From Streptomyces virus StarPlatinum (Duplodnaviria; Heunggongvirae; Uroviricota; Caudoviricetes): DNA of 60,304 bases. A program made the translations under genes and the position numbers. Below the pieces are notes generated by a model. The model was not told where the DNA came from and did no database searches. It saw nothing but the letters and a program-made list of their open reading frames with translations. Location of the stretch: positions 1-60,304 of IMG/VR virus record IMGVR_UViG_2974628900_000001; one strand, written 5' to 3'. Positions 1 through 15,003 of this stretch are shown here, piece after piece (the stretch's first letter is position 1; the number at the start of each line of letters is the position of its first letter).

Positions 1-228
1 GTGCAGGAAATCGAAGGCGAATCGTAAGCCACACATTAGATTCTAAAGTCAGAAGGGGGTTCCGGCCTTAGAATCACAGCCAACATAGCCAGCCAGCCTA
101 ATAAAGTATCGATTCAAGGGCTCAGACGGCCTCTAAAAACCAGCAAAAATAGCCCCAAAACCTGCAAAATCTGCCAATAATTGGCCCAAATCCTTTGAAA
201 ACACAGTATTTCCGGGAGTTTTTGCACT

Positions 229-690
229 CATTCGTAAAGGGCATGCCAGATAGACCTTAGAATCATAGGTCAGACTGACTATTTAGCCTTAGATTCCCAG
301 GAATTTAGCAGCCATTCGTAAAGCAGCCTACTATGACAGCCAAAGTATGCAGCCATGGCTATGCAGCCTGGATACTCAGCCAAGACAGATTGATTGTGCT
401 GTGTCTTATATGTAGAATTGACCCGGTGGAGTATTGGTTGTTGTTCTATGTCTTATATAGTACAAGGACACCCAATGCCACCGGCCAACAATCTCTCCTT
501 GTCCTATGTCTTATATCGGAAAACAGAAGAAGCCTGCCAATAAAGACGGCAGGCTTTGTTGCATGTCTTATATAAGACAGACCGAACTAACAATCAGAAT
601 CTTCCGCAGATTTTAGAGCCATTCATAAATGCGCTCCGATGATCTTTGTCAGATCTTCCGGGAATTTTAGGCCCATTCGTAAAGGGCGAA
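229..690. repeat. Non-coding terminal region with short iteron-like repeat arrays
   Basis: CATTCGTAAAG at 229, 313, 674 (variant ~619). CAGCC at 309, 324, 337, 350, 364, 377. TGTCTTATAT at 402, 449, 507, 564, the last within a perfect palindrome TGTCTTATATAAGACA. Hairpin 530-556. Confidence 0.8.
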
Positions 691-769
691 AACTCGGACA
701 TGTGGGACAAATCAAAATCTAGATGTATAGTCATCGTGTTAGTTAGGCTAAGCAATGAACCGGGGCGGC

Positions 770-892
770 TCACGCCTTTTCGGGCTTCATGCAGACAGAA
801 GAAGCCGTGTTCTCTCCGTCGAGAACGTGCACCCAGAATCCCAGCCAAATAACGGTGGTGCCACAGTGCTTGCAGTATCCGGTGTATTCCAC
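770..892 (-). CDS. Small hypothetical protein, 40 aa, CxxC (MEYTGYCKHCG...), not in ORF track
   Basis: GGGAGG RBS before a GTG start. Upstream promoter at 1011-1039. Stop directly followed by a GCCGCCCCGG box. Confidence 0.65.
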   Translation of the reverse strand: MEYTGYCKHCGTTVIWLGFWVHVLDGENTASSVCMKPEKA

Positions 893-1039
893 AATTCCTC
901 CAGATTGAATTGAAAGGTCCCTGGGTTGCAGCCGACCATCTGCTATTTAACCCCTCGCCCGAATGGACTGATAGGGGACCCAGGAACACACCTTATGACC
1001 TCACTACAATAGTGTAACAAGGTCATCGCTCAGTGTCAA

Positions 1040-1243
1040 TCACCACTGCAATTCGTCAGTGACGTTGTAGTGCGAGACGAACGGCACGACCCAGCGAGAA
1101 TTGAGAAGCTTTCCCTTCTCCTCCCACAGAGTGAGAGTGCCAGTCTTGGGATTGAACTCAACCCCATTGGACATGATGCCTGTGAACTCCAGCTCCCTTC
1201 GGACACCTTCTTCGAGAACGATCACGGTTACAGTCACAGTCAT
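1040..1243 (-). CDS. Hypothetical early protein, 67 aa
   Basis: Start moved to ATG 1243 because the promoter at 1266-1294 and a GAAGGGA RBS lie upstream of it. Confidence 0.75.
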   Translation of the reverse strand: MTVTVTVIVLEEGVRRELEFTGIMSNGVEFNPKTGTLTLWEEKGKLLNSRWVVPFVSHYNVTDELQW

Positions 1244-1353
1244 GTTCTGTCCCTTCGTTGATACTAGTCTAACAGAGTACAAGGGACATGTCTACCACCG
1301 GGCCAAAATAACCGGGGCGGCCAAAAGCCCCCGCCGAAGCGGGGGCCGTTGAC

Positions 1354-2355
1354 TCAGGCAGCCAGGGAGTAACCCAGGACAACCTTACGGATCTTGTTCT
1401 TCTCGGTGTTGGTGACCGGGTCGAATCCGGAAGCGGCGGCGAACAGGTTGTCCACCTCACCCTTACGCGGCATACGGTACCAGTCCTTGAACTCGGTGAA
1501 GGCATTCAGCGCACCGGCCATGGTACCGGCCAGAGACTGAGTGGTCTTGGGACCGTCGCCCGTGTCAGTGAAGATGCCCATGTGAAGATCGCGCTTGTTG
1601 TCCCACTTGACCTGGGACCCCTTGACGTTCTCCTTCGGACGCTCACCGTAGATCGCAGCGAACATCTCATCGAACTTGTCCTTCGTGCACTGCACGCGGA
1701 ACAGCTCGTTCATCTCACGCTCGAACTCGTCGGCGTAAGCGAAGGTGATGTTCAGTGCCTCACGCGCGGCAGCCATGCGACCCTCGATGGTCTGAGTGTG
1801 GCGCATCTTGAAACTCTGCTTCACACCGTTACGGAGTGCGAAGTTCAGGGTGTTCTGACACACGACACGGACCGGAGTGACGCTCGCCTGCACCGCGAGA
1901 GAACCGTCATGGGAGGTGTTCACGAGCAGATACATGTTCGTGACATCGTCGTCGCCCACCAGCACCTCACGACCGATGCGCAGAGATCCGAAGACCTGCG
2001 TACCGTCCTTGATAGAACCGGCAGTCTCCCACGTTCCACCACCCGCGAGGATGCCGTCACCGAAGGCGAACAGTTCCTCATTCTGGACGACCTTATACCG
2101 CTCCGCGACGATACCAAGGCTGTCAGCCTCACCATCGAACGGGTTGGTACGGATCACCTCGAAGGCACTCTTCTTGGTGCGACCCTTACGCTCCAGCAGC
2201 TCCAGCCGAACGTTCCAGTCGGAGAGGTGGGCGAGTCGCAGCATCTCAGAGGTGGTGAGTTCCCCGTCAAAGACGGTGCCAAGCTGGTGCCACGCGGGCT
2301 CCAGACGAGAGGCGAACGCGACCTGACCACGGGAACCGATTTCGAGACCGTGCAT
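1354..2355 (-). CDS. DUF932 family phage/plasmid-like protein
   Basis: WHQLG...LSDWNV, YKVVQNEELF, AGSIKDG, NSHDGS-like NTSHDGSLA and TPVRVVCQNTL motifs. ATG 2355 follows an AGGAG RBS. Confidence 0.85.
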   Translation of the reverse strand: MHGLEIGSRGQVAFASRLEPAWHQLGTVFDGELTTSEMLRLAHLSDWNVRLELLERKGRTKKSAFEVIRTNPFDGEADSLGIVAERYKVVQNEELFAFGDGILAGGGTWETAGSIKDGTQVFGSLRIGREVLVGDDDVTNMYLLVNTSHDGSLAVQASVTPVRVVCQNTLNFALRNGVKQSFKMRHTQTIEGRMAAAREALNITFAYADEFEREMNELFRVQCTKDKFDEMFAAIYGERPKENVKGSQVKWDNKRDLHMGIFTDTGDGPKTTQSLAGTMAGALNAFTEFKDWYRMPRKGEVDNLFAAASGFDPVTNTEKNKIRKVVLGYSLAA

Positions 2356-2590
2356 TTTTGCTCCTAGTGTAGGTGTTTCTTCTAGCTTACTTGCACGGGG
2401 ACTACTTGTCAAAGTAGTCAGAGAGCACACTGTTGAGTTGATCAAGAACAGATCATCCAAGGCTTCGGGCTTTCGCCTTCCCCCTTGCTGATAGCTCAAG
2501 TCTAACAGAGTCTAGGCGGATGTGTCCACATGATTCAAGGGAGATCATTTCGCCGGGGCGGCTTGTGGCCCCCGAAGGGGCCACCGCCAA

Positions 2591-2983
2591 TTAGGGAATC
2601 ATCCCCAGAGGCTCAAACGTTCCGATAATCTCGGAATCCGTCACCGCCGCCACAGACTGGTAGGTACCGGGCCTCACCTCAGACTGAGTGTCGTAGGCGA
2701 CAACCATGTAACCCGCGTCGTCCAGGTCATAGCCGAAGTCATCGAACCACTCGGCCACCTGCTCAGGAGACGTGAGCACACAGAACTCATTGGGCATGAT
2801 ACCACCCGGCACATCGGTCCACGGCGTGGGGTGCGTCTCGTCCACGTGCTCACGGCACAGACGGTTGGAAACGGACTTCACCTGCGGGTCGAAAGAGTCG
2901 AAACCCTCTCGATACGGACCGGCCCACTTACCCGTACGGTTGCCCTCATGCGTCGGGGGAAGGGCAACACGGTAAACGATCAC
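2591..2983 (-). CDS. Hypothetical early protein
   Basis: AGGAGG RBS, own promoter, host-like codons. Confidence 0.8.
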   Translation of the reverse strand: MIVYRVALPPTHEGNRTGKWAGPYREGFDSFDPQVKSVSNRLCREHVDETHPTPWTDVPGGIMPNEFCVLTSPEQVAEWFDDFGYDLDDAGYMVVAYDTQSEVRPGTYQSVAAVTDSEIIGTFEPLGMIP

Positions 2984-3094
2984 GTTTCCTCCTAGGTTTC
3001 CCTGGTTGGTAATCCTAGTCTAACGTAGTGTCAGCAGAGATCGCAACATGACTGACCATGATCTTTTGACCGGGGCGGCCCGAAGGCCGCTCTG

Positions 3095-3442
3095 TCAAGT
3101 GCCCATACGAATGATCATCTGTTCGATGATGAACCGGCACACAGAAGCTCGGTTGTATTCGTCGTCATTGCGCGTAGTGCCCGCAGCTTCCTTGGCAGCC
3201 ATTGCGTTAATGATTCCGATAGCCAGATCAAACAGAGGCTTTTGCAATTCCTCATGCTGGCTACACATCAAATACGCAAGGGTGTGGGCGTTGAATGTAC
3301 GCTTATCGAGTACAGAGAGAATCTTATCGGCATCCTTCTCCGCCGCGCTCCGCCGTGTAGACGTAGTGCGAGCACCCTGATAGACATCAGGAGCAATTAC
3401 CGAAACCTCTGCCTGCCGAAAGATGTCACCATTGCGTGCCAT
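3095..3442 (-). CDS. Hypothetical early protein
   Basis: GGAGG RBS; flanked by cassette hairpins. Confidence 0.8.
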   Translation of the reverse strand: MARNGDIFRQAEVSVIAPDVYQGARTTSTRRSAAEKDADKILSVLDKRTFNAHTLAYLMCSQHEELQKPLFDLAIGIINAMAAKEAAGTTRNDDEYNRASVCRFIIEQMIIRMGT

Positions 3443-3484
3443 TACGCCTCCAATGGAACGGCCCCCTTTCGGGGGCCGTAGCCT

Positions 3485-3646
3485 TTACTTGGGTTCGAAG
3501 TCTTGCGTATTCCCATATCCGTCAGTTACGCTGACAGACATACCGAGTACCGTTGCCAGGAAGGGGCCGAGAGCTTGGATCATGCTCCACGCCTGATCTT
3601 CCTGATCATCTCCATTGGGCTCGATTTCGAGCATCACGTTGGCCAT
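3485..3646 (-). CDS. Small acidic hypothetical protein, 53 aa (MANVMLEIEPNGDD...), not in ORF track
   Basis: AAGGTAG RBS just after the lsr2 stop; open frame ends before the hairpin at 3459-3478. Confidence 0.65.
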   Translation of the reverse strand: MANVMLEIEPNGDDQEDQAWSMIQALGPFLATVLGMSVSVTDGYGNTQDFEPK

Positions 3647-3655
3647 AGGTCTACC

Positions 3656-4168
3656 TTACTTGACCTTGACCTCTACGTCAAGACCCAGCACCACCGGGCT
3701 ACCGCAAGAGCAGTGGGACAGGCTGTAACCGCACTTGCACGCCTCACGCTCATTGAAGCGCCACACCTTGCCCTTACGGTCAACCGCGAGGTATTCGGTG
3801 TTGGGTCCGCGCGTCGCGGGCGCGGCCGGGCGAACGTCCTTACCGGTGGAAACCTTCACACCGGATACGGCCTCAGCCTTGACATCCGGATTGGCCTTTG
3901 CGTACGCCTCCAGGATCTCACCGGAGATACGGCCACGCGCGTTGACCTCGATACCGTTGGCCTTAGCCCACGCACGAACCTTCTTAGCGTCATAGGCACC
4001 GGCCTTGACAGCAGCGGGCTTTTTGGTACGGACCACGCCCGTGTCAGCGAAGACGGTACCCGCAGCCTCAGCAGCCTCGATGGCAGCGTAAGCCTCACGG
4101 CTCATACGGCCACGAACACCGAGCTTGGCAAGACCGAGAGTGGCGGCGTACTCACGACGAGTCTGCAT
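3656..4168 (-). CDS. lsr2: Lsr2-like DNA-binding protein
   Basis: DAKKVRAWAKANGIEVNARGRISGEILEAY matches the Lsr2 C-terminal AT-hook (RGR) domain. Confidence 0.85.
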   Translation of the reverse strand: MQTRREYAATLGLAKLGVRGRMSREAYAAIEAAEAAGTVFADTGVVRTKKPAAVKAGAYDAKKVRAWAKANGIEVNARGRISGEILEAYAKANPDVKAEAVSGVKVSTGKDVRPAAPATRGPNTEYLAVDRKGKVWRFNEREACKCGYSLSHCSCGSPVVLGLDVEVKVK

Positions 4169-4278
4169 TTGGTTCCTTCCGTTGTCCTTCGTTGTACCTT
4201 AAGCATAACAGAGCAAGGGCGCGAGGGCAACATAAAATTTGTCCGATTTGTCTCGCCGCCCCGGCCCGAAGGCCCGCA

Positions 4279-5001
4279 CTATTTCTTAGTGCGAGAGAAC
4301 CGGATATCGGCCTTACCGAAGATACAAAGGCCACACGTTACACACGCACCACCCTTTTCGGTAATCAGAGGAATCTGCTTAGCATTCTCGGGACACTTCC
4401 CACCGGGAACACCAGTCAGCATTTCGAAGATCTCTTTACCTTCGTTGAAGGTTTCTCCCAGATATGCCATTTTGACACCGGGATTGTCAGCCGCGCAAAG
4501 GAGCCCGGCGTTAAGGTTTTCCTTGTCTACACTAAGGTAGACAGACAGGTTAGGGATTGACGTGATGAATCCCACATACTCGAATGAACGAGTGTAGATC
4601 CAGAAATGCACGTCAGGGAATTCGAGGCAGACAGCCTCAATTGCTTCCGCATAAGTAGCGGAGAAAATGTCACCATCCGCATGCCAGCGGAAAAGCTTCG
4701 GGACATTGTGCTTTTCGCACTCACTCTTGAATTCAGAGATCATCTCACTCAGGAGATCGATCATCTTGTCAAGGGATGCATCCTTGAGCAATTCCCAGTT
4801 GTGCATGGCAACCGCGAGGAATGCCGGATACTGCTTTTCGATCCTACCCGCATAGCAGATAGTCTCACAGACCTTAGTAGCACCGGGGCAGGAAAACGCA
4901 GTGCCAGACGGCAGAGAGAATGCGTTTTTGATGAGCGACTGCTTACCCGCAGTGTTCGCTCGGACGGTGGTCTTACGGTCGTTGGTTCGCTTGAGTCCCA
5001 T
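4279..5001 (-). CDS. Gp88-like / radical-SAM-like Fe-S protein, leaderless
   Basis: CPGATKVCETICYA and FRWHADGD motifs, C-terminal CP...CVTCGLC. The -10 TAGGAT lies 6 nt before the ATG. Confidence 0.7.
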   Translation of the reverse strand: MGLKRTNDRKTTVRANTAGKQSLIKNAFSLPSGTAFSCPGATKVCETICYAGRIEKQYPAFLAVAMHNWELLKDASLDKMIDLLSEMISEFKSECEKHNVPKLFRWHADGDIFSATYAEAIEAVCLEFPDVHFWIYTRSFEYVGFITSIPNLSVYLSVDKENLNAGLLCAADNPGVKMAYLGETFNEGKEIFEMLTGVPGGKCPENAKQIPLITEKGGACVTCGLCIFGKADIRFSRTKK

Positions 5002-5103
5002 GGATTCATCCTAGCAGACGTAAGAGGGAGAATCAACATGCTTGGATCAAGATCTTTTGACCGCCCCGGCCGAACGGCCCCCGAAGGGGCCGTTGGCTTT
5101 AGA

Positions 5104-5268
5104 TCACTTGGGGGCAACCTCGAAGTCGTCCAGGCCGAGCGCGATGGTCTCGAACTCACTGGCCATGTTGTCGGTCATCTCAGCGGTGATGTTCCGGACG
5201 AGAGCGACACGCACGGTGGCGGTCATGGGGGTCTCGGCGATGACCTTGGCGATGGCGAGAGCCTTCAT
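5104..5268 (-). CDS. Small hypothetical protein, 54 aa (MKALAIAKVIAETP...), not in ORF track
   Basis: Own promoter at 5298-5326, AAAGG RBS, strongly host-like codons. Confidence 0.75.
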   Translation of the reverse strand: MKALAIAKVIAETPMTATVRVALVRNITAEMTDNMASEFETIALGLDDFEVAPK

Positions 5269-5323
5269 TTTGGAGCCTTTCGTCGTGGTGTGTTCTTAGT
5301 CTAGCGGATGGAACTTGGTTTGT

Positions 5324-5464
5324 CTACTCGCAGTCCACGAGAATTTCCATGTCGTCCAGGTGCTCGTCCGGAGACGTTTCGGGCATCGTCCAGATGTTCT
5401 CCAGCCAGCCCTTACGGATGACGCCGGTACGCTCGTCCGTGATCTTCTCCAGCTTAACGGTCAT
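5324..5464 (-). CDS. Small hypothetical protein, 46 aa (MTVKLEKITDERTG...), not in ORF track
   Basis: Promoter at 5510-5539 and GAGGT RBS. Confidence 0.7.
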   Translation of the reverse strand: MTVKLEKITDERTGVIRKGWLENIWTMPETSPDEHLDDMEILVDCE

Positions 5465-5596
5465 CAGAACCACCTCTCCGGGAGGTTTTCCCTCCCTTTC
5501 GATGTCTCTAGTCTAACAGACGTAAGCAACGATGTACAACAGGTTCTGACCATGATCTTTTGACCGGGGCGGCTTGCGCCCCGAAGGGCGCAGCTA

Positions 5597-6070
5597 TCAG
5601 CCGCAGATGGAACAGTCCATGCCACAACCGTAGTCGTAGTCGTCATCGTCGTAGTTGTAGGACTCCAGCGCGGTGAGACGGTTCAACTCCGTCTCGATGA
5701 TCTCCTTGCCCTCCTTGATGCTGAGGAACGGGAATTCCGTGCGGAGCTTCTGAATGCAGCGGATCTTGGAGTCTCGACCGACCTCGCTGACAACCCTCTC
5801 AGCGGCCTCACGCGCCCTGTCAAAGGCGAAGTCCTCGATGCCACGCAGACGGATGATCTCCGGACGGGAGAGGGTCAGACCCTCGTTCTGCGCCTTGATC
5901 TTGCCGTCCGCCACACCCTTCTTGTACGCCTCCGCGTAAACGTCGTTGGCGTTGGCCCGCATGGACACGTCGTGGTAACCCTTGATCCGGTCGGCAACCT
6001 CCATGGCCTGCGTGAAGCCCATCTCCACACCGTTGTCGAGGAAGATCTTCAAAACGTCCATGGCGTCCAT
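5597..6070 (-). CDS. Protein with ribosomal L7/L12 C-terminal-domain-like motif (paralogue 1)
   Basis: KIRCIQKLRTEFPFLSIKEGKEIIE aligns by eye with bL12 [24 protein letters not shown]. Confidence 0.65.
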   Translation of the reverse strand: MDAMDVLKIFLDNGVEMGFTQAMEVADRIKGYHDVSMRANANDVYAEAYKKGVADGKIKAQNEGLTLSRPEIIRLRGIEDFAFDRAREAAERVVSEVGRDSKIRCIQKLRTEFPFLSIKEGKEIIETELNRLTALESYNYDDDDYDYGCGMDCSICG

Positions 6071-6198
6071 GTTTTCCTCTCTTAGAGGGAGTGTCCCTCT
6101 TTGATGTCTCTACTATAGCAAGGAAAGGGGACCGGATGCAACACAGTCCGCGAAGATCTTTTCGCCGGGGCGGCTAGCGGGCTTTCGCCCGCCGCCTG

Positions 6199-6390
6199 TC
6201 AGAGTGCCCGAACAAGATGAATGTGATCGATGTTCTCGAAGTTGATCACATGAACACCGCCATGGAGATCTTCGATGAGGCTGAAATTAGTGCGAAGCTT
6301 GTCCTGCACCTCCTGCACAGTACCCTTGGCACGGAAGGTGACCATCTGCTCACGGTTCTTGAAGCGAACGATAACCTGAGTGTTTTCCAC
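6199..6390 (-). CDS. Hypothetical early protein
   Basis: Promoter at 6419-6447, GGGAGG RBS. Confidence 0.75.
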   Translation of the reverse strand: MENTQVIVRFKNREQMVTFRAKGTVQEVQDKLRTNFSLIEDLHGGVHVINFENIDHIHLVRAL

Positions 6391-6488
6391 TTTGCCTCCC
6401 GGCCTCGTTGATAGCTCTAGTCTACATGAACAGAGTCAGGATTACAACCCCGAACCGGGGCGGCTAGCGGGGCCGAAGCCCCGCCGCT

Positions 6489-6842
6489 CTACCGACGACC
6501 CATGGGAAGACCCTTGCGCGCTGCCTCCCTTTCCAACTCCCAACCGTTGTTGGTTTCGGTGGGGTGAATGTACTCGATTTCCTTGATCCCCAGCAGGTAC
6601 GCAACGAGCAGCCGGTGATGACCGTTGGTCACACGGTTACGCTCAGGGCTGTAAACGATGGGCGTCTGGATGCCATCCTTCTCGATGCTCTCGATGAAAG
6701 ATCGGGGAAGTTCATCGAACTTGGCGAGCATGCACGCTTCCTTGTCATCCATGTAACGGGAACCGTAGTTGCCCGTACGGGAATCGGAGGCGTCTCCGAA
6801 GATCGCGTCGTGCCACAGCTTTTCCACGTTGACCATGGGCAT
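6489..6842 (-). CDS. ParB/sulfiredoxin N-terminal-domain protein
   Basis: SIEKDGIQTPIVY...VTNGHHRLLVAYLLG matches the ParB-N G(H)HR motif; no HTH follows. Confidence 0.8.
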   Translation of the reverse strand: MPMVNVEKLWHDAIFGDASDSRTGNYGSRYMDDKEACMLAKFDELPRSFIESIEKDGIQTPIVYSPERNRVTNGHHRLLVAYLLGIKEIEYIHPTETNNGWELEREAARKGLPMGRR

Positions 6843-6969
6843 ATCTACTCCAAGGTTTCTCGCCCTGTTGGTAGTTATAGTCTAACGGATGATGTGATGG
6901 GGAGTCAACTCAACTCATCAAGATTTTTTGGCCGGGGCGGCTAGGCCGCCCGAAGGCGGCCCGGCGCGA

Positions 6970-7113
6970 TTAGATCCAGTTCCAGCCAATGTGAAGCAGA
7001 GCACCGAAGATCATGATGCCCAGCACGCCGAGACCGAGATTGACCAGCATGAGCAGCGCGGCGACGAAACCGGAGACACCCTCGACGCTGATGACACCCT
7101 TGACGTTGTACAT
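6970..7113 (-). CDS. Small membrane protein, 47 aa (MYNVKGVISVEGVSGFVAALLML...), not in ORF track
   Basis: GGAGT RBS; ~30-residue hydrophobic stretch. Confidence 0.7.
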   Translation of the reverse strand: MYNVKGVISVEGVSGFVAALLMLVNLGLGVLGIMIFGALLHIGWNWI

Positions 7114-7227
7114 GTCACTCCTAGAGAAAGGCGAAGAGCACGGTCTTTGCTGTCCACAAGCCTAGCATAAGTAGGCCGATCAGGAAAGGTATGAGAACTA
7201 GTAGTCCTGCACACCCGACGATCTTTA

Positions 7228-7386
7228 TCAGACCCACTCAAGGGGATCGTAGTCGAAGATGTCGCGGTGGTTGCGGTAGCGCTCTGCACGCTGCCTCTTG
7301 ATCTCACCGAGCTTCTTGATTTCCTTGACGCGCTTGTTCTGCGCCATGTACCGCTCGTTCCGCAGCCTACGAAGATCTTCTCGCAT
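7228..7386 (-). CDS. Small basic protein, 52 aa (MREDLRRLRNERY...), not in ORF track
   Basis: Promoter at 7410-7439, GAAGGGA RBS. Confidence 0.75.
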   Translation of the reverse strand: MREDLRRLRNERYMAQNKRVKEIKKLGEIKRQRAERYRNHRDIFDYDPLEWV

Positions 7387-7497
7387 TTCGTTCCCTTCGT
7401 TGTGTCTCTAGTATATACAGAGGTGGGAGGGAAGCGCAACATAGATCTTCAAGATCTTTTCGCCGGGGCGGCTTGCGCCCCGAAGGGCGCAGCCTTA

Positions 7498-7836
7498 TCA
7501 GTCTCGGATGTTCATGACCTCACGGTAGAACCGCACGTAAGCGTCGGCAGCGTCTTCGGCATTCTCCAGAGATTCGTAGTCACCGAATCCGTCAAGAGTG
7601 GAAACGGTGAACGCCCCATCTTCGTTGCGGGAAGCGTAGCGGAGGCTATACGCCTTGTCTTCCGGGTCCGAGCGGTACTCGGAGGTAACGAAGATCGCTC
7701 CTCGCTGGCCTACGGGGAAAACGTTCGGCTGGAGTTCCGTGTTGAAGAACTCCATCGATCCCTTCGTGAACCAGTGTCGGGCGGTGGAGTTGAACTCGCG
7801 GGACGCCTGAACGATCTGGTGCATCGTGGAGAACAT
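7498..7836 (-). CDS. Hypothetical early protein
   Basis: Own promoter and GAGGA RBS. Confidence 0.8.
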   Translation of the reverse strand: MFSTMHQIVQASREFNSTARHWFTKGSMEFFNTELQPNVFPVGQRGAIFVTSEYRSDPEDKAYSLRYASRNEDGAFTVSTLDGFGDYESLENAEDAADAYVRFYREVMNIRD

Positions 7837-7949
7837 TTACGTTCCTCTCGCTCGGTGTAAGACGAGTCTAACACATACAAGGGACGGAGCACAAGCCCTC
7901 TAGCAAATTAGCCGGGGCGGCCAAATGGCCCCCGAAGGGGCCAGATGAC

Positions 7950-8216
7950 TCACAGAACAGGCTTCTTGCCGAGACCCATGCTCTTGCCGAAGTCGTAGGA
8001 CTTGGCCTTGACCTCGTAGCCCGGCAGAACCTTGGTCACCCGGAACGGAGCGGCGCGGTGGAGAGCGGACAGCTTCTCAGCAGTACCCGCAGCCTCCACG
8101 TAGACCTTACCGGTACGCTCGTTGACACGGTACTCGAACTCGACTCCGTAGACGGTGGCCATCGTGATGACGACACCAGCGCGCTTGACGGAAACCTCGC
8201 CCATGAGAACGGCCAT
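7950..8216 (-). CDS. Hypothetical early protein
   Basis: Promoter at 8245-8273, AAAGG RBS. Confidence 0.8.
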   Translation of the reverse strand: MAVLMGEVSVKRAGVVITMATVYGVEFEYRVNERTGKVYVEAAGTAEKLSALHRAAPFRVTKVLPGYEVKAKSYDFGKSMGLGKKPVL

Positions 8217-8250
8217 TGTTTTGCCTTTCGTTCGGTGTTACTAGAGTCTA

Positions 8251-8529
8251 TCAGATGCGGTGAACGTTGTCACGCAGTTCATCGAACGTGTGCGGACTGC
8301 TGACGATCTCAGCGTTGCGGTAGAACCCGTGATCCACAAGGACCGTTACCGAGTTGTACACAACGTTCTGTACCGTTCCAGTGTACGCGATCTTGCCGTC
8401 AATCTCAAGGCCCTCGTTCAAGTAGAGCTGAGCCCAACTGTTGACGACTACGACCCTGTCACCCTTACGGAGCTTACCGAAGTTGCTTTGCAGATACTTG
8501 CGAATCCTGTAGCTGAGAGGCATCGTCAT
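8251..8529 (-). CDS. Hypothetical early protein (SH3/KOW-like beta content)
   Basis: Promoter at 8553-8581, GGGGAGA RBS. Confidence 0.75.
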   Translation of the reverse strand: MTMPLSYRIRKYLQSNFGKLRKGDRVVVVNSWAQLYLNEGLEIDGKIAYTGTVQNVVYNSVTVLVDHGFYRNAEIVSSPHTFDELRDNVHRI

Positions 8530-8639
8530 GATCTCTCCCCTTCGTTAAGACGAGTCTACATGACACCGGGCCAGATTGCAACACATTCTCAAAAGAGCCG
8601 GGGCGGCCAAACGGCCCCCGAAGGGGCCGTTGGTTTTGA

Positions 8640-9212
8640 TCAGCCGTTCATGCCACATCCGCACGGGCAAGATCCCTGGAAGGATTCTTCGGACGACTCG
8701 ATGGACTCGCGGGCCACGTCGTTCGTCGTCAGCTTCTCACGCAGCGCGGTGAGGGCGGACTGAGTGGCCAGCTCGGGTTCCGGCTTCGGGCTGTCCTTCT
8801 CGGCATCCTCGATCTTCGGCCAGTCAAGCTGGTCCGTGGTGCCGACCGGCTTGATCATGTCCATGATCGCCTTGGCCTCGATGAGACCCAGCGGACGGAA
8901 CTTGTCACGCAGAACCTTGATGCAGGTGATCTTGCGGGTGAGGTCACGCTCGGTGAAGTTCACGATGGCCCATGCCGTCGCCTCCACCACCTTCGGGTCG
9001 AAAGCGGCACGAACGGAGTTCTTGCCCGCCTCCACACCCGCGTCGTAGCGCTCCTGGCCGTAGGCGTACTTCTCGTCCTCGGCCTTGTACTTGGCGTCCT
9101 CCATCTGACGACGGAAGCCACGGTCGATGTCACCCGCGAAGCGGAGAGCGTCAGCGATCTTGGTGTCGGGGAAGTAGTTGCCGACCTGCTGAACGATCTC
9201 GATGCGCTCCAT
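8640..9212 (-). CDS. Protein with ribosomal L7/L12 C-terminal-domain-like motif (paralogue 2)
   Basis: KITCIKVLRDKFRPLGLIEAKAIMD resembles the bL12 CTD; shares a Y..GV..GK segment with 5597-6070. Confidence 0.7.
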   Translation of the reverse strand: MERIEIVQQVGNYFPDTKIADALRFAGDIDRGFRRQMEDAKYKAEDEKYAYGQERYDAGVEAGKNSVRAAFDPKVVEATAWAIVNFTERDLTRKITCIKVLRDKFRPLGLIEAKAIMDMIKPVGTTDQLDWPKIEDAEKDSPKPEPELATQSALTALREKLTTNDVARESIESSEESFQGSCPCGCGMNG

Positions 9213-9359
9213 GAGGTTTCCCTTCGTCTTAGGGGACTTCTTGCCCCCTTCGATGTACTAAGCTTAGCAGAGTCTAGCGGGCTGTGTCCAACTGTTCTGA
9301 GGGCCGATTTTCAAGATTTTTTGGCCGGGGCGGTTCGCGCCCCGAAGGGCGCTAGCCGG

Positions 9360-9656
9360 TTACTCCCAGGGAGAATAGTCAGACTCACGCTCGGCAGGCT
9401 TACGCTCGATACGGTCGAGGTAGCGGCCGGTGCTGTTGACGGACCAAATGGCCTTACGTCCGTTGTTGCTGTAACGCTTCTTGGTCAGTCGCTTGAGAAC
9501 AGTCTCAGCCTCACGACGAGAACGAACCTTGACGGACACACAGGGCTCACGGTAGTTGTAGTACCAACCACCCTCCTCCGGACCACCACACGCGAGATCT
9601 TCGAGGTAGATGTTGGCGTAGAACGGCTTGGGCTTGCGAACCTTCGGCGTCTTCAT
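9360..9656 (-). CDS. Basic hypothetical protein, leaderless (MKTPKVRK...)
   Basis: The -10 TAGACT at 9664-9669 lies 7 nt before ATG 9656. Confidence 0.75.
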   Translation of the reverse strand: MKTPKVRKPKPFYANIYLEDLACGGPEEGGWYYNYREPCVSVKVRSRREAETVLKRLTKKRYSNNGRKAIWSVNSTGRYLDRIERKPAERESDYSPWE

Positions 9657-9734
9657 AGGGATGAGTCTAGCAGAGTATCGGGCCGGTGGCAACAGATCTC
9701 CAATTTAGCCGGGGCGGCCCCGAAGGGCCTGACG

Positions 9735-9965
9735 TTACCGCCAGAGGAATTGACCTTGACATGCACAGTCGTTCGGCACTCGGTCTACCTTCTTGAATGC
9801 ACGCTGCATGGTAGAACGAGGGTAGACGGCGCGCAGGCATTCACGAGGATTGTGATGACCCACCTTGATCCACTCGTCTACGACTTCCACATAGAGGAAA
9901 GTCTCTTCGTGGCCGATCTGCTTTTCTCGCTGAACGTAGACTTCACCCTCAGAGATGAAGATCAT
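9735..9965 (-). CDS. Hypothetical early protein
   Basis: ATG 9965 with GGGAGG RBS overlaps the upstream stop (ATGA). Confidence 0.65.
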   Translation of the reverse strand: MIFISEGEVYVQREKQIGHEETFLYVEVVDEWIKVGHHNPRECLRAVYPRSTMQRAFKKVDRVPNDCACQGQFLWR

Positions 9966-10165
9966 CCGAACCTCCCACAAACGCAACGAATGGAGTCGCC
10001 CGGCTCCAAGAACAGATCGAGCATGTGCGGCGGAGTCATCATGGTGGTGCAGTGGTCGTTCATCAGGTGAATGACGACATACACCTCCTTTTCCATCACG
10101 TCGATGATCTCGATGCGACAGTTGGGGTCGGGCTTCTTCGCCTTGAGAATCTGTCCTCTTTGCAT
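9962..10165 (-). CDS. Hypothetical protein, leaderless
   Basis: The -10 TAGACT lies 6 nt before the ATG. Confidence 0.7.
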   Translation of the reverse strand: MQRGQILKAKKPDPNCRIEIIDVMEKEVYVVIHLMNDHCTTMMTPPHMLDLFLEPGDSIRCVCGRFG

Positions 10166-10364
10166 GTCTGTAGTCTAGCAGTCAGATTGCCAGTAGCGCA
10201 ACGCCTGAGCCGATTTTTTAGTCTCTAGATGTCTACACAGATTTTTAGTCATCTAGCCGGGGCGGCTAACTTTTTAGTCAGAAAATCACCCCTATGATTC
10301 GAAGGTTTTTCGTGCATATACCTAAGAAACACAGGGGTGAAAATCTAAGCGAATTTATTCAAGG

Positions 10365-10631
10365 TCACCAGAGTTCGTCCACTTTGGCCCAGAATCGGTG
10401 AATTCGCGGATCGTTGTTGTCGTTTGCGTAGAACGGATCATGGATTGTGCCCGTCAACGCACTTCCGATCTCGGGCCGGTGCAAGGCAACTCGATTGAAT
10501 ACGAATTGCCCATAACGCTGACCCTTGTTGTCACGCATCCATTCTGCGATGGTATCGAGAATGAATTGATTCAAGGAGAGTTGAGACACGAAATCACTTC
10601 CAATCGCCGGGAAGGTGACCGCTTTCGGCAA
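10365..10631 (-). CDS. Hypothetical protein
   Basis: ORF in a run of co-oriented genes; QRYGQFVFN...DPFY motif typical of small phage proteins. Confidence 0.7.
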   Translation of the reverse strand: MPKAVTFPAIGSDFVSQLSLNQFILDTIAEWMRDNKGQRYGQFVFNRVALHRPEIGSALTGTIHDPFYANDNNDPRIHRFWAKVDELW

Positions 10632-10794
10632 TCAGAAGGTCGAATTCCTCGAACTGCTCGGCCAAAGCCATTCCAGCAGCGAGAGTTTCGTTATTGATGG
10701 GCATCCTCTGAGCCTTTGCGGCCAGTTCACGCATTCCCTCAAGAAGGATTTGCATGCGCTCAGCAGACATATGTTTCACCCTTTCCTTTGCCAC
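10594..10794 (-). CDS. Hypothetical protein
   Basis: Co-oriented ORF; start uncertain. Confidence 0.6.
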   Translation of the reverse strand: MAKERVKHMSAERMQILLEGMRELAAKAQRMPINNETLAAGMALAEQFEEFDLLIAESGHLPGDWK

Positions 10795-10972
10795 AATGGC
10801 AATATACGGAATGTTTTGCTTCCACCGGGCGAAATCCGCCCTCGTTGTACTTTTTCAGAAGGATTTCGAGGTTTCCCGAAGAAATTACGCCCGTTTCGGA
10901 AAACAGGCCATTCTTTTCGAGCTTGAGGGTAAGCGAATGCGTACGAACGGCTTTTGCCTTATTCCTGAACAT
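10760..10972 (-). CDS. Hypothetical protein
   Basis: AAAGGGAAAG RBS before the ATG. Confidence 0.6.
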   Translation of the reverse strand: MFRNKAKAVRTHSLTLKLEKNGLFSETGVISSGNLEILLKKYNEGGFRPVEAKHSVYCHCGKGKGETYVC

Positions 10973-11029
10973 CGCTTTCCCTTTCTACCCCTAATGGGGG
11001 ATACCCTTTCGGATATCCCCCATATTGAG

Positions 11030-11173
11030 TTACGCCAGTTCGGAAACGTGCGGGTAGTCGGTCTCGTCCATGTCCACCGTACGCATGTCGTCCTGTACGG
11101 TAGATACGGGCAGGGTGTCCACAGAGACCCATCCCTCAGAGACGGCCCGCTCCAGAAGTTCGAGAGTGGTCAA
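11030..11173 (-). CDS. Small acidic hypothetical protein, 47 aa
   Basis: TTG start after a GAAGGGA RBS, downstream of promoter 11207-11235. Confidence 0.6.
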   Translation of the reverse strand: MTTLELLERAVSEGWVSVDTLPVSTVQDDMRTVDMDETDYPHVSELA

Positions 11174-11347
11174 GTTGATCAGTCCCTTCCGTCTTGGTGT
11201 AGTACCAGTATACACAGCCCCTACGCTACGCACAACCTAGATCCTCCGGGAAATTTTTGTACGCTTTCGTACACGCGCGGGGGATTTGTCCGGGAATTCC
11301 GTAATGCCCTCTTAAAGAGGAATGCCCCCTATGTGATGCATGCCCAC

Positions 11348-11422
11348 TGTGTACCCATATGGTATGGTATGTACCCTATGTACCATACGCCCTATATGTA
11401 CCCCTATGTACCGGTATGTCCG
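11348..11422 (+). repeat. TATGTACC tandem repeats
   Basis: Exact copies at 11368, 11377, 11395, 11405; variants at 11348 and 11415. Confidence 0.8.
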
Positions 11423-11550
11423 ATTTGTCCGGCCGCCCCGGTCGCGGATTCTTTACCAAGCCGTTACCTAAAAACCTCGGATTCAGGGGTTTTCCCGTGC
11501 GTGGTGGGGTAGTCTGTAGGTACAACGACAGAGACAAGGGAGACAGCGAC

Positions 11551-12012
11551 ATGATCACCACCACCGCCCCGGTTACCGCCCACGACAGCAACACTCACCA
11601 GTGCAGGGACAACGACCGCACTGCGGGTAGCGCGTACCGTCGTCAGTTGCTCGCTACGGTCCTGTACCTGGCTAGCCTTACGGGACACTCGGACGGTGAG
11701 ACCTACGCTGTGTGTGTGGGGTGTGGTGAGAATGCGTACGTGGGGGGTGCACCCCGGAACATGGACACGCTGAACCTGGGTCACTGTGAGGCAGACGCAA
11801 CGGGTGGCACGTACTGCGCTGCGAACATGCTTCCCCTTTGCAGGCAGTGCAACGAGGACATGGGTAAGGATGCCCTTACCGATGTGCTTGTTCCCCTGTA
11901 TGACAATCGTCACATGTGGGACGGTAAGCTGATCAAGGACAGTGGCAAGGTTAAGCAGGGTCCGCAGGCCAACCGTGGACGTGCCAACTGGACGCGCCCC
12001 ACGGGCGTCTGA
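11551..12012 (+). CDS. HNH endonuclease-like protein
   Basis: CVGC...LNLGHCEADATGG...NMLPLCRQCN; AAGGGAG RBS before ATG 11551. Confidence 0.7.
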   Translation: MITTTAPVTAHDSNTHQCRDNDRTAGSAYRRQLLATVLYLASLTGHSDGETYAVCVGCGENAYVGGAPRNMDTLNLGHCEADATGGTYCAANMLPLCRQCNEDMGKDALTDVLVPLYDNRHMWDGKLIKDSGKVKQGPQANRGRANWTRPTGV

Positions 12013-12027
12013 GACGCTTTGAGAGTA

Positions 12028-12060
12028 GCCCCTAGGTCTGAGTACCTAGGGGCACTTTCA
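12028..12060 (+). terminator. Hairpin terminator after the HNH gene
   Basis: GCCCCTAGGT-ctgagt-ACCTAGGGGC. Confidence 0.65.
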
Positions 12061-12263
12061 TGCCCTCACACGGGCGCACACGGCTTTTGAAAGCCGTTTT
12101 CAAATGGCCTGCCCTGCCTCGTGGAACCTTCCCCGGAGAGAATGTCAAGGGGTATGGGCGCACTAATTGGATTGTTACAAAGGTATGCGAAGCATGTATC
12201 GTACATGATAAAAAATTACTAACATTTCAGATTCGAAAATAGATGATCTTGAGCCGGGACGGT

Positions 12264-12491
12264 TCAGTCTCTCCACAATTCGAATCCGACTACATGCATG
12301 CATGGCTCGAAACGGGCATGAGCGTCGCACTCACAATTAAAACAATCCGGGGTGACCATTATAGTTGTAGGTTCATTTCCGCAATGCAGACAGCCTGGCA
12401 AACCTGCTTCCGCTAGCTGCAATCCTTCATAGCTTACGCAGAAGGCTCGGTACATTTGATAACCTACAACATTATCAATCTTGTGAGTCAT
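12264..12491 (-). CDS. Hypothetical Cys-rich protein
   Basis: CLHC...CFNCEC; overlaps the upstream gene as in an operon. Confidence 0.7.
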   Translation of the reverse strand: MTHKIDNVVGYQMYRAFCVSYEGLQLAEAGLPGCLHCGNEPTTIMVTPDCFNCECDAHARFEPCMHVVGFELWRD

Positions 12492-12696
12492 CGGTGTCGC
12501 TCATATCCCAGCTTGGAGGAGGCCCAGCAATTTTGCCTTGCTTATGCAGAGCGAGAAGCTTTACGGCTTCTTCTGGGTTTACTCCTCTTGCTACACACAT
12601 CATTACGTCATAGAGTCTCAGGAGCATAATGGTGCTTACTACTTCATATGAGTCTTGGTCAAAGACATCCTTCTCTTCGCCGGGCTCATTTTGCAT
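12475..12696 (-). CDS. Hypothetical protein
   Basis: Coupled to the thyX stop. Confidence 0.7.
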   Translation of the reverse strand: MQNEPGEEKDVFDQDSYEVVSTIMLLRLYDVMMCVARGVNPEEAVKLLALHKQGKIAGPPPSWDMSDTDDSQD

Positions 12697-13426
12697 TTAG
12701 CGCCTCCAATGTTCTTGGAAATACTGTCTTCGTCAGATCATTGACAGCTAGAGCATACTGCTGGATCTCATACTGCGCATCATGCTCTAGGCGTTCTGCA
12801 AGGAAATGAGCAACGGCAGCTAGAGAAGTTGTCCAGCGCCACCGGACAAACATTCCATATGCAGGAAGAAATAGTCTAGCCTGCTCTGGAGCAATGCCAG
12901 CCTTGAGTGCTTCGTTATAGATCTTTTCGCTATCTTCTACGTGAGCCTCTAGAACTGCCGTCCAGTAATCGCCATAAGCAGCGTCCAAATCTTCACCGGG
13001 GCTGTTTGCAGGGAAATTATCCCCACTTCCCTGCTTTGAATTAGCTGGCTTTGAGCGCCATTCGTATTCTTCTGGAACATGGAATTCCGGCTCCTCGGTA
13101 ATGTATCTGCGAGAAGACTCATTCCATCCAGTTTGATCTTCCAGGTGGCTAGATGCTACAGCATACTTCCACCACTGACGCGCCACGAATAGTGGCGCGT
13201 ATACCTCAAATGTCAATGCTGCATGCCTAAACGGGGAAAGATGACCCTCCCGGACAAGGAACTTTAGCAGTCTGTCGTCCTTGTCGGAAAAGTCATCTGA
13301 CTCCTTTGCATAGGATACACGCGCAGCATTGACGATAGACAAATCATTACCAAGACTATCAACCAGTCTTACATAACCCTTGTCAAGGCAACGAATCGTT
13401 GCACTAGCGTCGTCAATCTTCGTCAT
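12686..13426 (-). CDS. thyX: Flavin-dependent thymidylate synthase
   Basis: IVNAARVSY, GHLSPF, PLFVARQW, NESSRRY, PEQARLFLP and AQYEIQQYA motifs. Start moved to ATG 13426. Confidence 0.95.
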   Translation of the reverse strand: MTKIDDASATIRCLDKGYVRLVDSLGNDLSIVNAARVSYAKESDDFSDKDDRLLKFLVREGHLSPFRHAALTFEVYAPLFVARQWWKYAVASSHLEDQTGWNESSRRYITEEPEFHVPEEYEWRSKPANSKQGSGDNFPANSPGEDLDAAYGDYWTAVLEAHVEDSEKIYNEALKAGIAPEQARLFLPAYGMFVRWRWTTSLAAVAHFLAERLEHDAQYEIQQYALAVNDLTKTVFPRTLEALNAK

Positions 13427-13676
13427 TTTCCCATTCTCTGTTGATATACCAGTCCCATTCCTGATCTTCAAAGATCTGATTCCAGCTCTCTTCTGACAGG
13501 TCGGACTCCACGAATTGCATTTTGAACTTATGAACCTCGCCCGTTTCGGTATCAAGAACTGCGAAATGATCTCCAGTATAGGTGATCTTGCATCGTTCTT
13601 CATATGGGTTTCGGTTATTTATGATGTCTTCAAAGAGGAAGCAGTCGAGTATTTCTAGAGCTTCTTGTCTATCCAC
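13413..13676 (-). CDS. Acidic hypothetical protein
   Basis: Overlaps both neighbours. Confidence 0.7.
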   Translation of the reverse strand: MDRQEALEILDCFLFEDIINNRNPYEERCKITYTGDHFAVLDTETGEVHKFKMQFVESDLSEESWNQIFEDQEWDWYINREWENDED

Positions 13677-13836
13677 TTAGATTCGCAATCTCTGCATCTA
13701 GTCGTCTTACTTCTCTTTCGGCGCGCTTAGCGCCTACCTGATCACCGGCCCGCTTTGCCTTATCCATTGCTCGGGCCGCATCTCTGCGCTGCTCTCTAAG
13801 ACTATTCAGCGCACGTCTCATGCCTAGCTCAGCCAT
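13669..13836 (-). CDS. Small coiled-coil protein, 55 aa (MAELGMRRALNSLREQRR...), not in ORF track
   Basis: Open frame fills the gap; start overlaps the upstream stop. Confidence 0.7.
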   Translation of the reverse strand: MAELGMRRALNSLREQRRDAARAMDKAKRAGDQVGAKRAEREVRRLDAEIANLSG

Positions 13837-13990
13837 TTTCTACCAACCAATCATGCATTGCCTTGATTATGTCTGACTGCTTAGTAGCCTCTGCGTGGTT
13901 CTTTTCCTTACGAGCACGCATGTAAGACTTCTGAGCAGCCTCAAGTATTCGATTAGCTTCGCGTGCATTCTTTGGTCTAGGTACCGCCAT
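13829..13990 (-). CDS. Small basic protein, 53 aa (MAVPRPKNAREANR...), not in ORF track
   Basis: GGAGGA RBS before the ATG. Confidence 0.75.
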   Translation of the reverse strand: MAVPRPKNAREANRILEAAQKSYMRARKEKNHAEATKQSDIIKAMHDWLVENG

Positions 13991-14000
13991 TATTCCTCCA

Positions 14001-14945: not shown

Positions 14946-14960
14946 TGGTCTCCTTATAGA

Positions 14961-14992: not shown

Positions 14993-15003
14993 TATTCAGT
15001 TGT

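What the first reader, a model, noticed from the sequence alone, without database searches (positions are those of the whole stretch)
760..11441. Early region assembled from standard cassettes punctuated by an invariant GCCGCCCCGG box
Seen on the minus strand: stop codon, then a variable GC hairpin usually with a C(UUCG)G loop and no U-tract, then GCCGCCCCGG, often AAAAGATC, then -35/-10 of the next gene. There are 17 boxes here and I saw none past 18.4 kb. Hairpin stems vary freely while the box does not, and two boxes (4255, 5061) are flipped relative to transcription. That favours a DNA-binding site over an RNA element. Inference: a phage or host protein site acting as activator, insulator or roadblock (compare L5 stoperators), or a recombination hotspot for cassette shuffling.
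Basis: partly seen in the sequence, partly recalled or inferred. Interest (0 to 1): 0.78.

Follow-up and report, generated by a model that had tools for sequence, protein, structure and literature searches.

The report
Nuclease-read operator boxes in phage repeat
A short mirror-symmetric DNA box sits between the early genes in the 12-kb terminal repeat of a large Streptomyces phage; across 25 related phages its sequence changes in step with an HNH nuclease gene in the same repeat, so that nuclease is probably its reader, acting as a switch for the early genes and perhaps as a cutter at which gene cassettes are swapped.

Summary
Confirmed, with corrections. The window is the left half of a 133,886-bp cluster BE2 Streptomyces siphovirus. 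The box is a dyad, RCCG-(CCC/GGG)-CGGY: 18 copies per 12,199-bp terminal repeat, none exact in the 109.5-kb unique region; 'flipped' copies differ only in the 3-bp spacer. It behaves as a duplex protein site, not an RNA element: relatives tolerate unpairable arms, and it lies whole helical turns upstream of the -10 box. Related phages carry five versions in this slot. The version maps onto the tree of the repeat's own HNH protein (11551-12012) with the minimum 4 changes, against 7-9 on five neighbouring genes. That includes two BE1 phages that carry a BE2-type HNH and a BE2-type box. The HNH gene has a second box in its own promoter spacer or first codons in 17 of 25 genomes. Six cassette gains or losses break at the box, but it is also the longest shared word there. 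Best reading: operator of the HNH protein. Binding, cutting and the sign of regulation are untested. Closest known: T4-type PeSL cassettes and cluster O dyads; not a stoperator. This scan noted the box and the HNH link before on related phages; I found no paper.

The parts
1..12199 (.). Left direct terminal repeat (exact copy at the right genome end); 55-57% GC against 47-49% elsewhere
759..769 (-). Box 1 (CCC spacer); closes the array, no promoter downstream
1311..1321 (-). Box 2 (CCC); -35 at 1289-1294, -10 at 1266-1271; three different cassettes are inserted here in Karimac, Yaboi and Wofford
1354..2370 (-). DUF932 gene cassette (deleted box-to-box, with the next cassette, in Birchlyn)
2552..2562 (-). 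Box 3 (CCC); -10 at 2499-2504
3069..3079 (-). Box 4 (CCC) followed by AAAAGATCAT; -10 at 3017-3022
3656..4168 (-). Lsr2-like gene, first of a three-gene cassette
4255..4265 (+). Box 5, spacer inverted (GGG on the transcribed strand); followed by a BldC-like repeat at 4241; -10 at 4202-4207
4279..5001 (-). GP88-family gene cassette between the two inverted boxes
5060..5070 (+). Box 6, spacer inverted; followed by AAAAGATCTT; -10 at 5008-5013
5563..5573 (-). Box 7 (CCC) + AAAAGATCAT; -10 at 5510-5515
6164..6174 (-). Box 8 (CCC) after a GAAA-loop hairpin, + AAAAGATCTT; -10 at 6112-6117
6454..6464 (-). Box 9 (CCC), shortest spacing class; -10 at 6419-6424; cassette lost box-to-box in Enygma and Yaboi
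6931..6941 (-). Box 10 (CCC); -10 at 6879-6884
7462..7472 (-). Box 11 (CCC) + AAAAGATCTT; -10 at 7410-7415
7911..7921 (-). Box 12 (CCC; GGG at the same junction in Yaboi, Wofford, Elmer); -10 at 7865-7870
8597..8607 (-). Box 13 (CCC); -10 at 8553-8558
9324..9334 (-). Box 14 (starts with A); -10 at 9261-9266
9708..9718 (-). Box 15 (CCC); -10 at 9664-9669
10256..10266 (-). Box 16 (CCC), no hairpin, flanked by GACTAAAAA repeats; -10 at 10172-10177
11432..11442 (+). Box 17, upstream of the rightward HNH promoter (73 bp from a candidate -10 at 11510-11515)
11551..12012 (+). HNH-fold gene (153 aa, P0001; H78/N92/N101 intact), the only annotated-type rightward gene of the repeat; candidate reader of the box
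11563..11573 (+). Box 18, inside the first codons of the HNH gene; kept in all 8 genomes with this box type, even where the amino acid changes
12253..12263 (-). Degenerate box 54 bp outside the inner end of the repeat; positionally conserved, perfect in Yaboi and Wofford

Best explanation
The terminal repeat is the phage's first-expressed region: a row of small cassettes, each with a strong host-sigma (HrdB-type) promoter, 1-3 genes and a 3' RNA hairpin. The box at each joint is a duplex operator for a two-fold symmetric protein. It is made early from its own divergent promoter, binds the box at or just after that promoter and limits its own synthesis, and binds one box a whole number of helical turns upstream of each early promoter, where it tunes or switches the whole early set together. 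An upstream, phased position fits activation or counter-silencing slightly better than repression. Cassettes are gained and lost at the box because it is the one word every joint shares. Shown: dyad, confinement, phasing, co-variation with the HNH gene, second box at the HNH gene, breakpoints. Inferred: binding, dimer, transcriptional effect and its sign.
For: Duplex site: arms form G.G or C.C mismatches in 46/58 Samisti-type and 35/117 Mildred-type boxes; A.C flanks in 8/70 BE2 junction variants; arm pairing probability at most 0.28 in 17/18 window boxes. The spacer is CCC 180 times and GGG 66 times with no mixed G/C spacer, and inverts in place at orthologous joints, while adjacent hairpin loops are UUCG 205 times and never the reverse. 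Phasing: centre-to--10 distances peak at 33-35, 44-46, 52-56, 64-67, 75-77 and 84-85; 1 of 317 falls in 47-50 and none in 38-39 or 70-74; on a collapsed set (n=56) R=0.50 at period 10-10.5, reached by none of 5000 draws of either null. Reader: five box types need 4 changes (the minimum) on the HNH tree and 7-9 on DUF932, Lsr2, GP88 and two other repeat genes. Anedea and Bmoc have a BE1 backbone but a BE2-type HNH (support 100/98; AU p=0.039 against grouping with BE1) and a BE2-type box; their HNH residues 16-33 are 72-83% identical to BE2 and 32-47% to others. Of 147 Anedea genes tested, 6 lean to BE2; the HNH, scored separately, is a seventh, and of those followed up only it also passes the second contrast, Jay2Jay closer to Mildred21 than to Samisti12. 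Two HTH proteins are 98% and 86% identical between Anedea and Mildred21 despite different boxes. Box types predicted from the HNH alignment held for five metagenomic phages. Coruscant and L031 share an HNH clade and a GCGC-N3-GCGC box. A roughly 40%-identical HNH has its own CCG-N3-CGG variant nearby. The HNH is found in 87 Streptomyces phage records, all BE-like among the rows shown, and the BK phage read lacks the box. A second box lies in the -35/-10 spacer or first codons of the HNH gene in 17/25 genomes, like the I-TevI autorepressor operator (PMC2988022).
Against: No binding, cutting or expression data; public reads gave nothing usable. The catalytic His and Asn are invariant in 67 homologues, which a pure regulator would not need. 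The promoters look strong on their own, and several in the repeat have no box (1039, 5326, 8273). Phasing could also mean that a bound protein is only tolerated on one face, or reflect 9-10-bp host-factor repeats inserted between box and promoter. The two TGTC box types form a gradient rather than two classes (NootNoot 6:6). The genomes are related, so the independent switches number about four and only one clearly crosses the backbone tree. HNH and control trees used different settings. The second box is missing in Tomas, Coruscant and L031.
Confidence: 0.47

Rival explanations
1. Same reader, different main job: the HNH protein nicks or cuts the boxes (as the HNH enzyme DraIII cuts an arm-N3-arm site) to start recombination between the two terminal repeats, to help duplicate the repeat at packaging, or to disable the early templates. 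Cassette swapping at the box is then enzyme-driven.
For: H78, N92 and N101 and four Cys are conserved and the model has the beta-beta-alpha-metal fold. DraIII is an HNH enzyme on CAC-N3-GTG (PMC3996161). Boxes are confined to the repeat. All six resolved indels break at the box, the 1.76-kb Birchlyn deletion within 14 bp. Site-specific nicks of unknown function exist in T5, phiKMV-like phages and tf (PMC3517423).
Against: Cutting gives no direct reason for helical phasing to the promoter or for a box in the HNH promoter spacer. Double-strand cuts at 36 sites should be lethal unless tightly limited (inference). BE1-type spacers are heterogeneous, so sticky ends would not be compatible. The box is the longest shared word in all six event pairs, so passive recombination suffices. 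Fold hits to DraIII, PacI and Hpy99I are weak and generic.
Confidence: 0.28
2. The reader is another protein (an unidentified phage factor, or a host nucleoid or transcription protein that reads a GC-rich CSG-N3-CSG core), and the link to the HNH gene is shared ancestry plus one co-transfer.
For: Only one switch clearly crosses the backbone tree. Six other Anedea genes also lean to BE2. Host-type motifs sit beside the box: GATC followed by AT or TT in 99 of 103 cases, matching Gbn (PMC9239103), and BldC-like repeats (PMC5859096). Distant relatives have CRP-like boxes upstream of early promoters.
Against: Five versions occur among phages of the same hosts. The other Anedea candidates followed up fail the second contrast or are absent from TGTC-type phages, and the HTH proteins do not vary with the box. 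The composite motif has 38 scattered single hits and none in Streptomyces among 185,579 genomes. Blind predictions from the HNH held.
Confidence: 0.15
3. No reader: the box is microhomology homogenised by repeated cassette recombination and kept only as a safe crossover point.
For: It is the longest shared word in each indel pair. PeSL shuffling may need no dedicated enzyme (PMC2839356).
Against: This does not explain dyad symmetry, the strict CCC/GGG spacer in both orientations, phasing, the copy held inside HNH codons across an amino-acid change, or tracking of the HNH gene.
Confidence: 0.05
4. An RNA element: a second small hairpin or tail that turns the U-less hairpin into a terminator or processing signal.
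For: The box abuts or overlaps the hairpin's 3' strand, and its left arm often extends the stem across a bulge in folding predictions.
Against: Unpairable arms are common, predicted arm pairing is low, the spacer inverts while hairpin loops never do, and three boxes have no hairpin.
Confidence: 0.05

Closest known systems
PeSL (promoter-early stem-loop) cassettes of T4-type phages (Arbiol 2010, PMC2839356; Comeau 2014, PMC4122927)
   Same: Repeated stem-loop plus host-sigma early promoter between small variable genes; genes are gained and lost at these units.
   Different: PeSLs have no invariant dyad and no known reader; their stem-loops were shown to terminate; crossovers fall in several parts of the unit. 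Here there is no U-tract, a lineage-specific dyad, and the host is a Streptomyces siphovirus.
17-bp dyad repeats of cluster O mycobacteriophages (Cresawn 2015, PMC4351075)
   Same: Inverted arms around a 3-bp spacer that is mostly a homopolymer in either orientation; many copies; predicted dimeric reader.
   Different: Cluster O sites are spread through the genome, a third lie in genes, most are not linked to promoters and few mark indels. Here they are confined to the terminal repeat, phased to promoters and mark indels.
I-TevI, homing endonuclease and autorepressor of phage T4 (PMC2988022)
   Same: A phage nuclease with a target-like site over its own promoter.
   Different: I-TevI is a GIY-YIG enzyme in an intron with one operator and one homing site; here an HNH-fold protein would read 18 sites per repeat, and binding is untested.
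DraIII and related small HNH restriction enzymes (PMC3996161)
   Same: HNH active site; dyad site with a 3-bp spacer.
   Different: Only weak, generic structural likeness (Foldseek E 0.54; VIA Z 3.5); no partner methylase in the repeat; the sites are in the phage's own DNA.
Stoperators of L5 and other cluster A mycobacteriophages (own knowledge; contrast also drawn in PMC4351075)
   Same: Many copies of a short word between genes.
   Different: Stoperators are asymmetric, oriented with transcription and bound by the immunity repressor of a temperate phage; none of this holds here.
Pre-early or host-takeover terminal repeats of T5 and SPO1 (size comparison in PMC5764925; function from own knowledge)
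   Same: 10-13-kb terminal repeat of small early genes behind strong host promoters.
   Different: No dyad box at each joint is known to me in those phages.

Membership tests
PeSL cassettes | Repeated stem-loop next to a strong host-sigma early promoter between variable small genes | tested here: met
   14 of 17 intergenic boxes have hairpin and promoter
PeSL cassettes | Gene insertions and deletions map to the unit | tested here: met
   Six events resolve to the box
PeSL cassettes | Stem-loops are effective terminators | not testable with these tools
   No U-tract; no 3'-end data
PeSL cassettes | Excised mini-circles | tested here: inconclusive
   Only assembled contigs of relatives could be laid; no reads of this phage
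PeSL cassettes | Occurs in T4-type myoviruses | tested here: not met
   Stanwilliamsviridae siphovirus; works like a PeSL array but is an analogue
Cluster A stoperators | Asymmetric site in one orientation relative to transcription | tested here: not met
   Dyad; spacer CCC 180, GGG 66
Cluster A stoperators | Spread through the genome of a temperate phage | tested here: not met
   18 per repeat, 0 exact in the unique 109.5 kb
Cluster O 17-bp repeats | Inverted arms with a 3-bp spacer, homopolymer in both orientations | tested here: met
Cluster O 17-bp repeats | Genome-wide, mostly not promoter-linked, not at indels | tested here: not met
Cluster O 17-bp repeats | Same arm sequence (TGTTCGG) | tested here: not met
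   Arms are RCCG here and TGTCSG in BE1
Autorepressing phage endonuclease (I-TevI type) | Target-like site over or just after the gene's own promoter | tested here: met
   17 of 25 genomes; promoter elements assigned by eye
Autorepressing phage endonuclease (I-TevI type) | Protein binds that site and lowers its own transcription | not testable with these tools
   needs EMSA and reporters
HNH (beta-beta-alpha-metal) nuclease, for P0001 | His general base, structural Asn and metal-binding Asn in the HNH fold | tested here: met
   H78, N92, N101; model pLDDT 86; best fold hits are HNH domains, Z 6.9 at 2.4 A over 82 residues
Dimeric HNH restriction enzyme (DraIII type) | Homodimer that cleaves a dyad site | not testable with these tools
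Localised virion nicks (T5, phiKMV, tf) | Asymmetric consensus on one strand only | tested here: not met
   dyad in both orientations; the nicks themselves cannot be tested here

The most novel reading that the evidence does not exclude
A stand-alone HNH nuclease is the dedicated, specificity-switching reader of a phage early region: one small protein marks every cassette joint, regulates the promoters and its own gene, and by nicking the same sites drives an integrase-free cassette-exchange system. Exchange of its 18-residue N-terminal arm re-writes all 15-18 boxes of the repeat.
Probability: 0.3. Interest if true: 0.86.

Novelty: new variant of a known kind. Interest (0 to 1): 0.62.

Why it matters
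How lytic phages with very long terminal repeats (T5, SPO1, cluster BE) coordinate their first-expressed genes and renew them is poorly understood, and repeated dyads such as those of cluster O have no known reader. Here a named 153-residue protein, five natural site variants and a natural arm swap make the question testable with one gel shift. If it holds, an HNH nuclease acting as a multi-site regulator or cassette cutter would be unusual, and the family would be a set of small site-specific DNA readers with a swappable recognition arm. It would also matter to people who use these strong promoters or these phages in Streptomyces.

Tried and rejected
HTH_17/BldC-like protein at genome 67291 and HTH protein at window 54086 as readers: nearly the same in Anedea and Mildred21 despite different boxes. 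Lsr2, DUF932, GP88, the ParB-like gene and the 3095 gene as readers: 7-9 changes on their trees. Host regulon: composite motif not found in Streptomyces genomes. RNA hairpin reading of the box: rejected. Rfam: no real match in 1-12600. Public reads: only contigs of 80-95% relatives from metagenome-type runs and one run with no reads; no evidence on 3' ends, circles or habitat. First AlphaFold run on 21 close rows was poor (pLDDT 52); PDB sequence search gave nothing significant. No DraIII-, PacI- or Hpy99I-specific fold match stood out. More distant HNH homologues lay on contigs of 0.6-3 kb. Avoidance of the site in the unique region is uninformative (about 2 loose matches expected by my estimate). 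Phosphorothioate and SfiI/BglI site readings (own knowledge) were dropped because the needed flanks are not conserved. Three literature searches found no description of the box; papers outside the library were not searched.

Full report
Identity. The first 12 kb match 85 Streptomyces phage records, best the cluster BE2 (Karimacvirus) phages at about 88%. The genome is one 133,886-bp contig with an exact 12,199-bp direct terminal repeat; by length it may be StarPlatinum (memory, unchecked). The finding covers almost the whole left repeat. The repeat is 55-57% GC against 47-49% elsewhere and holds about 25 small leftward genes (DUF932, Lsr2, GP88, ParB-like and unknowns) and one rightward HNH gene. 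The papers on these phages that I read describe the repeat but no motif in it (PMC5764925, PMC8612146, PMC13191466).

The observation. There are 15 exact 10-mers against 0.02 expected and 18 copies of the 9-mer CCGCCCCGG, 17 intergenic and one in the HNH gene. All 36 genomic copies lie in the two repeats. The word is a dyad, R-CCG-N3-CGG-Y, so a flipped copy differs only in its spacer. Fourteen boxes have the full layout: stop codon, hairpin without U-tract, box, then a -35 (TTG or TAG type), a 17-18-bp spacer and a -10 of the TAGACT type. Promoter calls are consensus matches only.

DNA or RNA. In 14 BE2 repeats the spacer is CCC 180 times and GGG 66 times, never a mixed G/C triplet, and it inverts at orthologous joints while the flanks stay put. 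The hairpin loops beside boxes are UUCG 205 times and never its reverse: the hairpin is an RNA feature with a direction, the box is not. In BE1 relatives the arms often cannot pair (G.G or C.C in 46/58 and 35/117 boxes). The distance from box centre to -10 clusters at 33-35, 44-46, 52-56, 64-67, 75-77 and 84-85 bp. After collapsing to 56 values from six genomes the best period is 10-10.5 bp (R=0.50; not reached in 5000 draws of a uniform or a unimodal null). Orthologous joints are not independent, so the p-value is optimistic, but the pattern is what a protein needing one helix face relative to polymerase would leave.

Five versions, one slot. BE2: RCCG-CCC-CGGY. Tomas: GACCG-GCC-CGGTC. Most BE1: TGTCCG-N3-CGGACA. 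Samisti12 group: the same with the left arm mostly TGTCGG. Coruscant and L031: GCGC-N3-GCGC. Information content stays near 22-26 bits while moving between core and flanks. BE2, most-BE1 and Samisti-type phages were all isolated on S. griseus, which argues for a phage-encoded reader. The sister-group BK phage Beuffert lacks the box in the homologous region, and the composite motif does not occur in Streptomyces genomes.

The candidate reader. Earlier notes of this scan suggested the HNH gene; I tested it. On 25 genomes the five box types need 4 changes on the HNH tree, the least possible (shuffled mean 13.2), and 7-9 on five other repeat genes with the same taxa (quicker tree settings). The key case is Anedea and Bmoc (L039; 132,885 bp with a Bmoc-like HNH). 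They group with BE1 on DUF932, Lsr2 and three more genes, but their HNH groups with BE2 (100/98; AU p=0.039) and their boxes are BE2-type. Genome-wide, 6 of 147 Anedea genes lean to the window's genome (where my ORF picker took the antisense frame over the HNH); the HNH does so by 235 against 189 bits. Of those followed up, only the HNH also shows the second expected pattern, Jay2Jay closer to Mildred21 (89%) than to Samisti12 (80%) against the genome trend; the HTH proteins do not vary with the box. The protein varies mainly in residues 16-33 and 127-146; the first segment of Anedea is 72-83% identical to BE2 and 32-47% to others. From that segment I predicted the box type of five metagenomic phages before reading their DNA, and all five fit, though the two TGTC types grade into each other. 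A much more distant homologue has its own variant, ACCCG-N3-CGGG, four times in the adjacent DNA.

The HNH gene's own control region. 23 of 25 genomes have a box within about 170 bp upstream of the gene (Coruscant has one further up; L031 was not resolved), and 17 have a second one: between the likely -35 and -10 in BE1 types, or inside the first codons in BE2, Anedea and Bmoc. The coding copy survives a Thr-to-Ala change in a region that is otherwise variable and poorly predicted, so the constraint is on the DNA. This resembles the operator of I-TevI, a nuclease that represses its own promoter (PMC2988022). The protein has the HNH fold (pLDDT 86; best hits are Cas9 HNH domains, Z 6.9) with H78 and N101 invariant in 67 homologues. 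DraIII shows that an HNH enzyme can read an arm-N3-arm site (PMC3996161), but the structural likeness to it is weak.

Cassette traffic. Six gains or losses among BE2 phages switch from one parent joint to the other at the box: the 1.76-kb Birchlyn deletion (window of 14 bp), three different insertions at box 2, loss of the cassette after box 9, and an insertion at box 6 in Yaboi. In each pair the box is also the longest shared word (11-14 bp against 10 or fewer elsewhere), so ordinary short-homology recombination is not excluded.

Mechanism. Most likely the HNH protein binds the boxes as a dimer, limits its own gene, and acts on the early promoters from a phased upstream position. Activation or counter-silencing against host proteins that bind this AT-rich DNA fits the position a little better than repression; Gbn-type GATCWT words and BldC-like repeats lie between many boxes and the -35 (PMC9239103, PMC5859096). 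The main rival is that it nicks the boxes to start recombination between the repeats, with shuffling as a by-product; both may be true, as for I-TevI. A roadblock that completes termination is unlikely, because the box starts 1-14 nt after the hairpin loop in nearly all cases. A bound protein could instead stop polymerase before the protective hairpin is made and so destabilise early messages (speculation).

Verdict. A real, conserved and apparently unpublished element. It works like a PeSL array and looks like a cluster O dyad but is a member of neither, and it is not a stoperator. The scan has reported the box and the HNH link before on related phages. New variant of a known kind; interest 0.62.

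Noticed in passing
window 3058-3066, 5043-5056, 5550-5560, 6152-6160, 7450-7458 (just downstream of boxes, minus strand): GATC after the box is followed by AT or TT in 99 of 103 BE2 cases, the consensus of the host nucleoid protein Gbn (GATCWT, PMC9239103); 10 of 33 distinct downstream types carry it.
   Followed up: partly
window 4241-4249 and 11418-11426; many more in L002, L003, L016-L019: AT-rich-CGGAC words resembling the BldC repeat of the whiI promoter (PMC5859096), in BE1 often as 8-9-bp-spaced arrays running from the box toward the -35.
   Followed up: partly
window about 10205-10280 (minus strand): Three GACTAAAAA words around box 16, conserved at the same joint in BE1, BE2, Tomas and Coruscant: probably a site for a second factor.
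   Followed up: no
window about 905-995 (minus strand): Conserved non-coding, probably structured RNA behind the promoter at 1039-1011, also recognisable in the BK phage Beuffert (L015 near 14250-14330); no Rfam match.
   Followed up: partly
window 12253-12263: Degenerate box 54 bp outside the inner repeat boundary, kept in position across BE2; near the physical genome end.
   Followed up: partly
L047, L066, L077 and similar loci (35-40% GC IMG/VR contigs with a DUF932 relative): Early promoters of distant relatives carry CRP-like TGTGA-N6-TCACA boxes upstream and a TGTCRG-N10-TAnnnT core that resembles the PafBC-dependent promoter motif (from memory).
   Followed up: no
L015 (Beuffert) 12500-20000: BK phage has a different repeated unit between small genes: a hairpin followed by CAAGCTT, possibly a promoter with a hairpin in its spacer.
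   Followed up: no
L031 2300-9900; L136 (Coruscant) 1000-10000: A second dyad (AGATG...CATCT type) lies between box and -35, and the box-to--10 distance is almost fixed at 53-54 bp in L031.
   Followed up: no
window 5597-6070 and 8640-9212: Two paralogous genes (phrog_5819); the second has a weak ribosomal L7/L12 C-terminal-like match.
   Followed up: no
window hairpins at 2563-2590, 5574-5596, 6175-6197, 6465-6488, 7473-7497: The hairpin stem often extends across a single bulged A into the left arm of the box, so RNA hairpin and DNA box overlap by 2-4 bases.
   Followed up: partly
L018 (Anedea) HNH 9750-10217: The Anedea/Bmoc HNH looks mosaic: BE2-like N-terminal arm, some Samisti-like core residues, Tomas-like C-terminal segment.
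   Followed up: partly
window 5298-5326 and 8245-8273 (minus strand): Internal promoters without a box or hairpin inside two-gene cassettes.
   Followed up: no
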